The position numbers and the translations under genes were made by a program. Shown piece after piece: positions 6,054 through 6,870 of a DNA stretch of 6,885 nt (the first letter of the stretch is position 1; each line of letters starts with the position of its first letter). Source of the stretch: a virus (lineage: Duplodnaviria > Heunggongvirae > Uroviricota > Caudoviricetes); IMG/VR virus record IMGVR_UViG_2541047122_000022; one strand, 5' to 3'. The notes under the pieces are model-generated. The model saw nothing but the letters and a program-made list of their open reading frames with translations, was not told where the DNA came from and did no database searches.

Positions 6054-6077
6054 CCGATATGGGAATTCCCATATCGG
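6054..6077. repeat. Perfect 24-bp palindrome CCGATATGGGAATTCCCATATCGG upstream of the hok promoter region
   Basis: Direct reading: 6054-6065 is the reverse complement of 6066-6077. No T-run on either side, so it is unlikely to be a terminator. Confidence 0.5.
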
Positions 6078-6184
6078 GCGAAAACGGTTTGCTGTAACGG
6101 CAGAGTTAAGTAGGATTGCTGCGGGTGCTTGAGGCTATCTGCCTCGGGCATGAACACCAACGGCAGATAGATAAAAGCCCCACC

Positions 6185-6265
6185 CGACTATAAATCGAAG
6201 TGAGGCCCCTATATGCTCGTCACATATAGATTGCCTCTTACGGACCGAAAGGTCAAGGAGAAGCA
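6185..6265 (-). ncRNA. Predicted Sok-like antisense RNA (approximate placement)
   Basis: Inferred from hok/sok family organisation: the antisense RNA overlaps the mok translation-initiation region. A candidate -35 TTAACA on the minus strand (rc of 6288-6293) was seen, but the -10 is unclear and the ends could not be fixed. Confidence 0.25.
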
Positions 6266-6425
6266 GGCTATGAAGCAGCAAAAGGCGATGTTAATCGCCC
6301 TGATCGTCATCTGTTTAATCGTCATAGTGACGGCACTGGTAACGAGGAAAGACCTCTGCGAGGTACGAATCCGAACCGGCCAGACGGAGGTCGCTGTCTT
6401 CACAGCTTACGAACCTGAGGAGTAA
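6213..6425 (+). CDS. Mok-like reading frame: in-frame upstream extension of hok (70 aa)
   Basis: ATG 6213 is in the same frame as hok and 57 nt upstream of its ATG; a GAGG lies upstream. This matches how chromosomal mok/hok pairs are annotated, as I recall. Confidence 0.4.
   Translation: MLVTYRLPLTDRKVKEKQAMKQQKAMLIALIVICLIVIVTALVTRKDLCEVRIRTGQTEVAVFTAYEPEE
6270..6425 (+). CDS. hokD: Hok/Gef-family type I toxin (small membrane peptide), 51 aa, HokD(RelF)-like
   Basis: MKQQKAMLIALIVICLIVIVTALVTRKDLCEVRIRTGQTEVAVFTAYEPEE is unmistakably Hok/Gef family. RBS AAGGAG 9 nt upstream. The hokD assignment rests on memory and on synteny with a dicA/dicC prophage. Confidence 0.9.
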   Translation: MKQQKAMLIALIVICLIVIVTALVTRKDLCEVRIRTGQTEVAVFTAYEPEE

Positions 6426-6493
6426 GAGACCAGGCGGGGGAGAAATCCCTCGCCACCTCTGATGTGTCAGGCATCCTCAACGCACCCGCACTT

Positions 6494-6521
6494 AACCCGC
6501 TTCGGCGGGTTTTTGTTTTTT
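6494..6521 (+). terminator. Rho-independent terminator at the 3' end of the hok mRNA
   Basis: Stem AACCCGC / GCGGGTT with loop TTCG, followed by TTTTGTTTTTT. Confidence 0.7.
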
Positions 6522-6591: not shown

Positions 6592-6870
6592 ATGGCGCAC
6601 GATACCAAATTATACAATTCTGATGATTCTGCCGTCTTTGCCAGCAGGCGCGGACGGTGTTTTCACGCATTCAAATCTGACTGGTACCAGCATCCCCCAT
6701 GCACTGAAGAACAGGCCGAATGGCTCATTCAGTGTTACCGCAGGCGCGGATGCGAGGTTAAAAAAGCCCTTAGCCTCGACTACCGTCACTGGATAATCTC
6801 CGTCAGGCTCCCTTACTCCGAACGGCCACCGCGTCCGTCCCGCACATTCCAGCAACGGATCTGGAGGTAA
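6592..6870 (+). CDS. Hypothetical small protein, 92 aa, with 4 Cys and 4 His; positionally like the gene that follows hokD in Qin-type prophages
   Basis: ORF track 6592..6870 (+); ATG start with only a weak RBS. No family recognised. An antisense ORF (6610..6855) starts with TTG and is considered less likely. Confidence 0.4.
   Translation: MAHDTKLYNSDDSAVFASRRGRCFHAFKSDWYQHPPCTEEQAEWLIQCYRRRGCEVKKALSLDYRHWIISVRLPYSERPPRPSRTFQQRIWR

What the first reader, a model, noticed from the sequence alone, without database searches (positions are those of the whole stretch)
6121..6521. Apparently intact hokD-type hok/mok/sok module within a prophage, with 5'/3' fold-back complementarity and no relBE
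The toxin ORF is canonical. The sequence from about 6123 (GGGTGCTTGAGGCTATCTGCCTC) resembles the 5' end of plasmid R1 hok mRNA as I recall it. The 3' region contains CCTCAA-c-GCACCC (6475-6487), complementary to GGGTGCTTGAGG at 6123-6134, which is the long-range pairing expected for the hok translational-activation/fold-back elements. A terminator follows at 6494-6521. In E. coli K-12, as I remember, hokD sits behind relB-relE and lacks these elements, so this locus looks like an autonomous, probably functional version. Plasmid hok/sok is reported to exclude phage T4, so a phage-exclusion role in a lysogen is plausible.
Basis: partly seen in the sequence, partly recalled or inferred. Interest (0 to 1): 0.5.

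Follow-up and report, generated by a model that had tools for sequence, protein, structure and literature searches.

The report
Intact prophage hok/mok/sok toxin-antitoxin module
This is a complete copy of the well-known hok/sok RNA-controlled toxin-antitoxin cassette sitting in a lambda-like prophage of an O157:H7-type E. coli; it is real and looks functional, but it is an ordinary, already described kind of element.

Summary
Window 6123-6521 is a full-length hok mRNA unit. It has the 5' tac element (6123-6134), an in-frame mok ORF (6213-6425), hok (6270-6425, 51 aa, Pfam HOK_GEF E 7e-22), the fbi element (6475-6487) and a terminator (6494-6521).

By homology to the annotated sokC and sokW RNAs, a cis-antisense Sok RNA runs on the minus strand from 6221 to about 6167. 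Rfam RF01794 scores 103.9 bits against a gathering score of 59.

The 5'/3' pairing is the predicted minimum-energy fold. Shuffled controls matched it in only 2 of 2000 trials. It covaries across 25 loci from six genera (U-A in 15, C-G in 8).

K-12 Qin hokD is identical from about 6257 to 6520, so it keeps fbi and the terminator. Its whole 5' control region is replaced by relBE.

This is not new. Full-length hok/sok-type modules occur in 3725 of 5426 complete E. coli genomes. O157:H7 was reported to carry 13 hok genes in 2006. [quoted passage not shown] A phage-exclusion role here is untested.

Novelty: already known. Interest: low.

The parts
6089..6116 (+). Putative weak sigma-70 hok promoter: -35 TTGCTG (6089-6094), 16-nt spacer, -10 TAGGAT (6111-6116), 6 nt before the mRNA start at 6123.
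   Evidence: Read from the sequence. It aligns with TAGAAT of 933W hokW and TATAAT of K-12 hokC at the same distance from GGGTGC. The consensus scan did not call it, which fits a weak promoter. No transcription start site was mapped here.
6123..6519 (+). Full-length hok mRNA, about 397 nt.
   Evidence: Rfam RF01794 match starts at 6123 with model position 1. The terminator lies at 6494-6511 plus a T run. The fold has z = -6.8.
6123..6134 (+). tac (translational activator) element GGGTGCTTGAGG.
   Evidence: It pairs with 6475-6487 in the full-length fold and with 6175-6181 in the 3'-truncated fold. Positions 4 and 12 covary with fbi.
6125..6151 (+). Metastable 5' hairpin of the nascent transcript (6125-6135 pairs with 6141-6151).
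   Evidence: The first 30-50 nt fold into this hairpin at -18.8 kcal/mol. It gives way once 56 nt or more are present. The same kind of structure is described for R1 (PMC9841398).
6135..6170 (+). Stable 5' stem-loop (CTATCTGCC / GGCAGATAG).
   Evidence: Seen in the folds. Consensus pairs at alignment columns 13-21 and 59-66 carry compensatory changes.
6175..6183 (+). ucb / anti-SD box AAGCCCCAC.
   Evidence: It pairs with the mok SD region 6200-6206 in the full-length fold and with tac in the truncated fold. AGCCCC is invariant in 25 of 25 loci.
6202..6205 (+). mok Shine-Dalgarno sequence GAGG.
   Evidence: It lies 7 nt upstream of ATG 6213. GAGGC is conserved across the alignment.
6213..6425 (+). 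mok ORF, 70 aa, in the same frame as hok (an N-terminally extended Hok).
   Evidence: ORF list. mokC/hokC of K-12 and mokW/hokW of 933W share a stop coordinate in the same way. Translation shown.
6209..6229 (+). Sok-target hairpin (stem CTATATG/CATATAG, loop CTCGTCA beginning with a YUNR motif CUCG) that contains the mok start codon.
   Evidence: Seen in the folds. The role of the YUNR loop in R1 is from my own knowledge (Franch et al. 1999).
6167..6221 (-). Predicted Sok antisense RNA, 49-55 nt: 5' GACGAGCAUAUAGGGGCCUCACUUCGAUUUAUAGUCGGGUGGGGCUUUU(AUCUAU).
   Evidence: The 5' ends of the annotated K-12 sokC and 933W sokW both map to 6221, and their 3' ends to 6167 and 6173. The hairpin plus U run folds at -17.6 kcal/mol on the antisense strand against -8.3 on the sense strand. 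No expression data exist for this copy.
6228..6256 (-). sok promoter: -35 TTGACC (6256->6251), 17-nt spacer, -10 CAATCT (6233->6228), transcription start 7 nt downstream at 6221.
   Evidence: Read from the sequence. TTG of the -35 and A(-11)/T(-7) of the -10 are invariant in 25 of 25 loci, R1 type included. K-12 sokC has the same architecture (TTGACC, 17 nt, CACTCT). It falls below the threshold of the consensus scan.
6256..6260 (+). hok Shine-Dalgarno sequence AGGAG.
   Evidence: Read from the sequence. It is partly paired with 6236-6239 in both folds.
6270..6425 (+). hok toxin gene, 51 aa: MKQQKAMLIALIVICLIVIVTALVTRKDLCEVRIRTGQTEVAVFTAYEPEE.
   Evidence: Pfam PF01848 at E 7.1e-22. Identical residues: 50 of 51 with K-12 HokD, 46 of 51 with HokW, 25 of 51 with R1-type Hok.
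6266..6407 (+). Long-range helix that sequesters the hok start region (6266-6278 pairs with 6395-6407).
   Evidence: Seen in the folds. Consensus pairs at columns 190-200 and 319-330 have compensatory changes in 3 pairs.
6433..6454 (+). G+C-rich 3' stem-loop GGCGGGGGAGAAATCCCTCGCC, expected to be the 3' end protector of the processed mRNA.
   Evidence: Seen in the fold. Conserved with compensatory changes. An equivalent R1 stem-loop is needed for stability of the truncated mRNA (PMC9841398).
6475..6487 (+). fbi (fold-back inhibitory) element CCTCAAcGCACCC.
   Evidence: It pairs with tac. It lies 45-56 nt after the stop codon in all intact homologues. Covariation shown.
6494..6521 (+). Rho-independent terminator AACCCGCTTCGGCGGGTT + TTTGTTTTTT.
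   Evidence: Terminator scan. Identical in K-12 hokD.

Best explanation
The region is a complete hok/mok/sok type I toxin-antitoxin cassette of the hokD/hokW subfamily. It is carried as an accessory gene ('moron') in the early-right (nin) region of a lambdoid prophage of an O157:H7-type E. coli.

Most likely mechanism, as established for plasmid R1:
1. A weak promoter makes a stable mRNA of about 397 nt.
2. While the mRNA is being made, a 5' metastable hairpin hides tac.
3. In the finished mRNA, the 5' tac pairs with the 3' fbi. The ucb box then covers the mok ribosome-binding site, so the RNA can neither be translated nor bound by Sok.
4. Slow 3' trimming removes fbi. tac then captures ucb, which frees the mok ribosome-binding site and exposes the target hairpin.
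5. As long as the short-lived antisense Sok RNA (minus strand, 6221->about 6167) is being made, it pairs across the mok start. The duplex is then destroyed by RNase III.
6. If Sok synthesis stops, mok is translated, hok translation is coupled to it, and the 51-aa membrane peptide depolarises and kills or lyses the cell.

What is shown here: the presence, position and conservation or covariation of all these elements, and the predicted alternative folds.

What is inferred from tested homologues: transcription of both RNAs, 3' processing, toxicity and the antidote effect.

By analogy with the 89%-identical hokW-sokW of Sp5/933W, the biological role is most likely to hasten growth arrest and lysis after prophage induction. 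Maintenance or exclusion roles remain possible.
For: - Family signatures: Rfam RF01794 at 103.9 bits against a gathering score of 59; Pfam HOK_GEF at E 7e-22.
- Full-length fold: it pairs 6123-6134 with 6475-6487 and 6177-6183 with the mok SD region. The truncated fold switches tac to 6175-6181. The metastable hairpin appears. These are exactly the states described for R1 in PMC9841398.
- tac/fbi pairing is not chance: 2 of 2000 shuffles reach the observed energy. 90.3% of cells are paired, against 32-57% in the slid controls. Pair 4 is U-A in 15 loci and C-G in 8. Per-locus duplexes of -18 to -25 kcal/mol sit at a constant 45-56 nt after the stop codon in Escherichia, Kluyvera, Pseudocitrobacter, Photorhabdus, Pantoea and Erwinia.
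- Sok: the ends of the annotated sokC and sokW map to 6221 and 6167-6173. The hairpin is twice as stable on the antisense strand. The key promoter bases are invariant in 25 of 25 loci.
- Context: near-identical loci are annotated as hokD inside prophages.
- Tested homologue: hokW-sokW is toxic, is neutralised by sokW from its own promoter, and promotes lysis and phage release after mitomycin C (PMC8621323).
Against: - There are no expression, processing or toxicity data for this copy.
- Both promoters are weak by consensus (hok -10 TAGGAT; sok -10 CAATCT), and the promoter scan called neither.
- In the thermodynamic predictions the mok SD becomes only slightly more accessible after truncation (P unpaired 0.25 -> 0.31).
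- Intact chromosomal hokA, hokB and hokC loci did not give post-segregational killing or rifampicin-induced killing in earlier work (summarised).
- The Sok hairpin here is a short variant, 22 nt shorter than in hokW and most hokD-type loci, and it has not been tested.
Confidence: 0.88

Rival explanations
1. The cassette is structurally intact but physiologically silent. On this view it is a selfish or decaying passenger of the prophage that is never activated, as was concluded for several chromosomal hok/sok loci.
For: [quoted passage not shown]
- Both promoters here are weak by consensus.
- hok copies are often inactivated by IS elements or rearrangement: K-12 hokC by IS186, K-12 hokD by relBE, and a frameshifted Shigella copy, L033.
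Against: - Every regulatory element is preserved. The paired positions are under visible purifying or compensatory selection across genera.
- The same sequence is kept at 99% identity or more in 552 records.
- The closest tested prophage copy is active and has a phenotype (PMC8621323).
Confidence: 0.15
2. The main role is abortive infection or exclusion of superinfecting lytic phages such as T4. Host transcription shut-off by the invader would stop Sok synthesis and release Hok.
For: - R1 hok/sok on a high-copy plasmid reduced T4 efficiency of plating by 42% and plaque size by about 85% (Pecota and Wood 1996, as quoted in PMC8621323).
- The differential-stability design would respond to a transcription shut-off.
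Against: - The effect was modest and was obtained only with a multicopy plasmid.
- hok genes are not enriched next to defence systems (bioRxiv 10.1101/2025.08.07.668861).
- The only prophage copy studied acts in favour of its own phage.
- Nothing in the window bears on exclusion.
Confidence: 0.15
3. The 5'/3' complementarity is a chance match and the locus is just a hok ORF with a terminator.
For: None, beyond the short length of the match (12 bp).
Against: - Only 2 of 2000 shuffles reach the observed energy.
- The partner sits at a constant position in 23 other intact loci, with compensatory U-A to C-G and G-C to A-U changes.
- The pairing is part of the minimum-energy and centroid folds.
Confidence: 0.01

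Closest known systems
hokW-mokW-sokW of Stx2 phage 933W / Sakai prophage Sp5 (Plunkett 1999 annotation; Takada et al. 2021, PMC8621323)
   Same: - It is a prophage-borne cassette with a 51-aa Hok (46 of 51 residues identical) and a 70-aa in-frame Mok.
- The tac, ucb and fbi sequences are the same.
- The DNA is 89% identical over 6081-6495.
- The annotated Sok 5' end maps to the same base.
   Different: - The window has a Sok hairpin 22 nt shorter.
- Its mok leader and sok promoter are hokC-like (TTGACC/CAATCT rather than TTGCCT/TAACCT).
- It has a K-12 hokD-type terminator, which 933W lacks.
- It lies in the early-right (nin) region rather than near attR.
hokD (relF) of the K-12 Qin cryptic prophage
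   Same: - The DNA is identical apart from 3 substitutions from about 6257 to 6520: hok SD, coding region (50 of 51 aa), 3' stem-loop, fbi and terminator.
- It occupies the same slot between the immunity/replication genes and ydfU/Q, in the same orientation.
   Different: In K-12 everything upstream of the hok SD is replaced by relB-relE: the promoter, tac, ucb, the mok start, the Sok RNA and the sok -10. hokD there is the third gene of the relBE operon and has an orphan fbi. The window copy is autonomous and complete.
hok/mok/sok (parB) of plasmid R1, the type system
   Same: - The order and spacing of all elements are the same.
- The mRNA has the same length (about 397 nt).
- The 5' end is nearly the same (GGCGCTTGAGGCTTTCTGCCTC).
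- The alternative folds are the same.
   Different: - Hok is only 25 of 51 residues identical.
- R1 mok is in a different frame from hok, whereas here it is in frame.
- R1 is on a plasmid, where it gives post-segregational killing.
hokC(gef)-mokC-sokC of the E. coli chromosome
   Same: - The leader and coding region are 86% identical.
- mok is in frame.
- The sok -35, the spacer length and the Sok 5' end are identical.
   Different: - Hok is 40 of 51 residues identical.
- The K-12 copy is cut off from its fbi by IS186, 20 nt after the stop codon.
- It is chromosomal, not in a prophage.

Membership tests
[quoted passage not shown] | Small (about 50 aa) hydrophobic Hok/Gef toxin ORF. | tested here: met
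   PF01848 at E 7.1e-22, 77 bits against a cut-off of 22. 50 of 51 residues identical to HokD.
[quoted passage not shown] | Conserved structured hok mRNA leader. | tested here: met
   The RF01794 covariance model scores 103.9 bits against a gathering score of 59, covering model positions 1-157 over 6123-6272.
[quoted passage not shown] | An overlapping mok reading frame with its own SD, starting upstream of hok. | tested here: met
   A 70-aa ORF from ATG 6213, preceded by GAGG at 6202-6205. It is in frame with hok, as are the annotated mokC and mokW. Translational coupling itself cannot be tested here.
[quoted passage not shown] | Long-range tac/fbi pairing of the mRNA 5' and 3' ends. | tested here: met
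   Present in the minimum-energy and centroid folds. 2 of 2000 shuffles match it. Covariation across 25 loci.
[quoted passage not shown] | ucb (anti-SD) pairs with the mok SD in full-length RNA and with tac in 3'-truncated RNA; the nascent RNA forms a metastable 5' hairpin. | tested here: met
   All three states were predicted and match the R1 description. This is thermodynamic prediction only; no structure probing was done.
[quoted passage not shown] | A cis-encoded antisense Sok RNA with its own promoter and terminator hairpin, complementary to the mok translation-initiation region. | tested here: met
   Met at the sequence level. The ends map from the annotated sokC and sokW. The hairpin is stable specifically on the antisense strand and is followed by a U run. 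The promoter core bases are invariant. Transcription was not tested.
[quoted passage not shown] | Hok is toxic and Sok neutralises it; the mRNA is stable and Sok is unstable; the mRNA is processed at its 3' end. | not testable with these tools
   Shown only for the homologues R1 hok/sok and hokW-sokW.
relBE-hokD (relBEF) operon arrangement of K-12 Qin | hokD lies immediately downstream of relB-relE, without its own leader. | tested here: not met
   There is no relBE in the window. Upstream is paa and then a complete hok leader.
Abortive-infection / phage-exclusion systems | Reduces productive infection by heterologous phages. | not testable with these tools
   The only data are in the literature, for R1 hok/sok on a multicopy plasmid.

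The most novel reading that the evidence does not exclude
In six lambdoid contexts the hok cassette lies between the replication genes and rusA/Q, always in the sense direction of the antiterminated early-right operon. These are the window and its O157:H7 relatives, strain AMSHJX01, mEp460, Evi, vB_EcoM-606R7 and K-12 Qin.

In 933W it lies just beyond attP, downstream of and co-directional with the early-left operon once the genome has circularised.

This placement may be functional. After induction, read-through transcription would collide with and silence the convergent sok promoter. It would also make 5'-extended hok RNAs that lack a free tac end. Together these effects would turn the cassette into an induction-triggered auxiliary lysis timer, rather than a maintenance or defence module. 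That would give a mechanism for the unexplained RecA-dependent loss of sokW RNA reported by Takada et al.
Probability: 0.2. Interest if true: 0.4.

Novelty: already known. Interest (0 to 1): 0.1.

Why it matters
It matters little as a discovery.
- hok/sok cassettes in lambdoid prophages have been annotated since the 933W genome.
- They were counted in O157:H7 in 2006 (13 copies).
- They were characterised functionally in 2021.
- They were shown to be enriched in prophages in 2025.

The value here is as annotation and as a reference point. This copy shows what the rearranged K-12 hokD looked like before relBE replaced its control region. It also adds a clean example of tac/fbi covariation and of the invariant dual-partner bases of tac.

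If the orientation hypothesis in the novel case were true, it would link prophage induction mechanistically to activation of a type I toxin.

Tried and rejected
- **Chance complementarity.** Rejected by shuffles and covariation.
- **The Rfam 'sok' hit as evidence for the antisense RNA.** Rejected. The hit is on the hok-sense strand and ends on the hok AUG, so it identifies the hok leader and not Sok. Sok was placed instead by homology to the annotated sokC and sokW.
- **The sigma-70 consensus scan.** It found no promoter on either strand. Promoters were therefore assigned only by alignment to homologues and by invariant bases.
- **hokW in the nin region of 933W.** I looked for it there and found nothing. 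It is near attR.
- **The 24-bp palindrome at 6054-6077 as a possible hok control element.** Rejected. It is absent from all other hok loci and travels only with the paa segment.
- **Helix counting over the distal half of tac/fbi.** This is blurred by a one-base register shift, because some loci have the bulged C and others do not. Per-sequence duplexes were used instead.
- **L014 and L033.** These two loci (IS-disrupted or frameshifted hokC) lack fbi and were left out of the alignment.

Full report
**Observation.**
- The window reads GGGTGCTTGAGGCTATCTGCCTC from 6123 and CCTCAAcGCACCC at 6475-6487.
- A 7-bp G+C-rich hairpin followed by TTTGTTTTTT lies at 6494-6521.
- The ORF 6270-6425 encodes a 51-aa peptide. 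It matches Pfam HOK_GEF at E 7.1e-22 and differs from K-12 HokD at one residue, I17 for T17.
- A gathering-threshold Rfam scan of the whole window gave a single hit: RF01794 'sok', 103.9 bits against a gathering score of 59, over 6123-6272 on the plus strand.
- That hit is on the hok-sense strand, and its last three consensus positions are the hok AUG. The model therefore recognises the hok leader, not the antisense RNA itself.

**Is the 5'/3' complementarity more than chance?** Yes.
- The minimum-energy and centroid folds of 6123-6519 pair 6123-6128 with 6482-6487 and 6129-6134 with 6475-6480, leaving one bulged C. The fold energy is -163.8 kcal/mol against -122.5 +/- 6.1 for shuffles, z = -6.8.
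- The isolated duplex is -21.1 kcal/mol. Only 2 of 2000 dinucleotide shuffles of the 110 nt after the stop codon did as well. Within the whole window the only better partner is the element's own reverse complement.
- I fetched 34 loci encoding Hok relatives from one-genome-per-species contigs, plus an R1-type plasmid locus.
- In every intact locus the 5' 12-mer finds a complement of -18 to -25 kcal/mol, 45-56 nt after the stop codon. The changes are compensatory: GGGTGC/GCACCC in Escherichia and Kluyvera becomes GGGCGC/GCGCCC in Photorhabdus and Pantoea, and GAGG/CCTC becomes GAGA/TCTC.
- On a 25-sequence alignment, RNAalifold recovers the helix.
- The pair count gives 90.3% of cells paired against 32-57% for partners slid by 1-3 columns. 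Pair 4 is U-A in 15 loci and C-G in 8.

**Anatomy.** Coordinates were checked.
- Putative hok promoter: TTGCTG, 16 nt, TAGGAT at 6089-6116.
- mRNA start at 6123; tac at 6123-6134.
- Stable stem-loop at 6135-6170.
- ucb (anti-SD) AAGCCCCAC at 6175-6183.
- mok SD GAGG at 6202-6205; mok ATG at 6213.
- Target hairpin at 6209-6229.
- hok SD AGGAG at 6256-6260; hok at 6270-6425.
- A conserved long-range helix covers the hok start (6266-6278 with 6395-6407), with compensatory changes in three pairs.
- 3' stem-loop at 6433-6454; fbi at 6475-6487; terminator at 6494-6521.

mok is in the same frame as hok, giving a 70-aa extended Hok. The annotated mokC/hokC of K-12 and mokW/hokW of 933W likewise share their stop codon. 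In R1, by contrast, mok is in a shifted frame.

**Sok.**
- Aligning the window with K-12 hokC-sokC and 933W hokW-sokW and transferring the annotated RNA ends puts the Sok 5' end at 6221 from both references. The 3' end falls at 6167 (sokC) or 6173 (sokW), on the minus strand.
- The predicted RNA of 49-55 nt has a single-stranded 5' tail of 9-11 nt. That tail is complementary to the loop and stem that carry the mok start. It is followed by a hairpin and UUUU.
- The hairpin folds at -17.6 kcal/mol on the antisense strand but only -8.3 on the sense strand. Several pairs are G-U only in the antisense orientation.
- Upstream on the minus strand are TTGACC (6256->6251), a 17-nt spacer and CAATCT (6233->6228), with the start 7 nt further on.
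- The consensus scan does not call this promoter. However, it has the same architecture as K-12 sokC (TTGACC, 17 nt, CACTCT). TTG of the -35 and the A(-11) and T(-7) of the -10 are invariant in all 25 loci, including the R1 type.
- These bases also belong to conserved hok mRNA structure, so their invariance is not proof of promoter function.

**Predicted switching.** All three states correspond to the scheme described for R1 in PMC9841398.

| RNA state | Predicted pairing |
|---|---|
| Full-length | tac pairs with fbi; 6177-6183 (ucb) pairs with 6200-6206 (mok SD) |
| 3'-truncated (fbi removed, 6123-6474) | tac 6123-6130 pairs with 6175-6181 (ucb) |
| Nascent, first 30-50 nt | metastable hairpin, 6125-6135 with 6141-6151, at -18.8 kcal/mol; it resolves once 56 nt or more exist |

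- One detail stands out. The tac bases that must pair with both fbi and ucb are invariant. The two tac positions that covary with fbi (4 and 12) are unpaired in, or lie outside, the tac/ucb helix.
- The predicted gain in mok SD accessibility after truncation is small (0.25 to 0.31). The switch is therefore supported by homology and architecture more than by the energy model.

**Context.**
- The whole window matches O157:H7-type chromosomes at 99%. It also matches 'PPompW' prophages deposited as phage records, where the gene is called gef, 'phage maintenance protein'.
- In near-identical loci the gene order is: cI-like repressor, cro, ydaT, DnaT-like replication gene, P, DUF1627, a fimbrial pseudogene, paa, hokD, then DUF968/ydfU, rusA and Q.
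- The hok module homology begins at about 6080 and ends at about 6520.
- In the five further contexts examined, hok sits between the replication genes and rusA/Q, co-directional with the early-right operon. These contexts are strain AMSHJX01, mEp460, Evi, vB_EcoM-606R7 and K-12 Qin.

**Comparison with K-12 hokD.**
- The Qin copy is identical to the window, apart from three substitutions, from about 6257 (the hok SD) to about 6520.
- It has therefore kept the 3' stem-loop, fbi and the terminator.
- Upstream of the SD the sequence is unrelated and encodes relB-relE. The breakpoint lies inside the sok -35 region.

**What is known.**
- Faridani et al. 2006 (PMC1635323) counted 13 hok genes in each O157:H7 genome against 5 in K-12.
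- The 933W genome annotation already lists mokW, hokW and a 71-nt sokW.
- Takada et al. 2021 (PMC8621323) reported four things:
  - HokW is toxic.
  - sokW expressed from its own promoter neutralises it, partly through RNase III and Hfq.
  - sokW disappears and HokW appears after mitomycin C in a RecA-dependent way.
  - Deleting the locus delays growth arrest by about 40 min and halves phage release.
- A 2025-26 survey found hok about four-fold enriched in prophages and not enriched near defence systems. It also recalls that intact chromosomal hokA, hokB and hokC loci failed to give post-segregational killing (bioRxiv 10.1101/2025.08.07.668861).
- In the collection searched here, 4721 of 5426 complete E. 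coli genomes match the 511-nt query. Of these, 3725 have a place covering at least 80% of it, which requires the leader. 552 records are at least 99% identical.

**Verdict.**
[quoted passage not shown] It is closest to K-12 hokD in its coding and 3' parts, to hokW in its 5' leader, and to hokC in its mok leader and sok promoter.
- The mechanism is almost certainly that of R1. The physiological role is unproven.
- The best-supported guess is the induction-linked lysis aid shown for hokW-sokW. Phage exclusion and prophage maintenance are less supported alternatives, and silence is a real possibility.
- The finding is already known in kind and in near-identical sequence, so interest is low.
- The only mildly new idea that the data leave open is that the constant sense orientation within antiterminated early operons is what couples prophage induction to loss of Sok.

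Noticed in passing
window 6054-6077: A perfect 24-bp palindrome, CCGATATGGGAATTCCCATATCGG, with an EcoRI site at its centre. It sits exactly at the left boundary of hok-module homology, between paa and the hok promoter. It is absent from all other hok loci fetched. It is found as a single copy in 580 E. coli genomes, always with this paa-hok intergenic segment. Its function is unknown; it could be a hairpin at the end of the paa moron or a protein-binding site.
   Followed up: partly
window 6408-6410 (hok codon 47, TAC, within CTTACGAAC): TACGAA is invariant in all 25 aligned loci. [quoted passage not shown] The toxin made from this prophage copy may therefore also depend on RNA editing for its second cysteine.
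   Followed up: partly
window 6123-6272, plus strand: The Rfam family RF01794, named 'sok antitoxin', matches the hok-sense strand and ends at the hok start codon. It therefore models the hok mRNA leader rather than the antisense Sok RNA. Strand-specific expression tables that use this model (for example the 'sok_n' entries for EDL933 in PMC5331693) probably report hok leaders.
   Followed up: partly
window 6177-6206, compared with L005, L006, L011 and 933W (L041): The Sok terminator hairpin comes in two forms. A short form occurs here, in hokC, Photorhabdus and Erwinia. A form 22 nt longer occurs in most hokD/hokW-type loci. The window is a mosaic: its 5' leader is hokW-like, its mok leader and sok promoter are hokC-like, and its coding region and terminator are hokD-like.
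   Followed up: partly
window 5176-5934: paa (AcfC-family adhesin Paa; Pfam SBP_bac_11 at E 5e-34), a virulence-associated moron, lies directly upstream of hok. It has its own short terminator-like hairpin at 5941-5954.
   Followed up: partly
window about 4446-5000: A fimbrial-protein gene remnant lies here. The equivalent region is annotated as frameshifted, with an internal stop, in near-identical genomes (L001 6433-6966).
   Followed up: no
window 1982-3548 versus L001 2693-5045: The DnaT-like replication gene is uninterrupted in the window. In O157:H7 strain PV15-279 it is split by an IS1203 insertion. Most O157:H7 matches also carry about 380 extra bases relative to the window (an extra small ORF after hok), so the window's hok-downstream junction resembles that of non-O157 strain AMSHJX01.
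   Followed up: no
window 6592-6870: A 92-aa ORF directly after the hok terminator has no Pfam match. It is conserved as a 'hypothetical protein' upstream of the DUF968/ydfU gene in related prophages.
   Followed up: no
L013 (Acinetobacter idrijaensis, 275-bp contig), L017 (Xanthomonas pisi, 431-bp contig), L038 (MAG, 2995-bp contig): E. coli-type hokD sequences, 93-98% identical at the protein level, appear on tiny contigs of unrelated genera. These are most likely assembly contamination rather than horizontal transfer.
   Followed up: no
L021 (Kluyvera sp. CHPC 1.2972), upstream of hok: A Kluyvera genome carries the K-12-type relE-hok junction, with the same upstream sequence as Qin, next to a diverged hok (68% identity). 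The relBE-hok rearrangement is therefore not confined to E. coli K-12.
   Followed up: no
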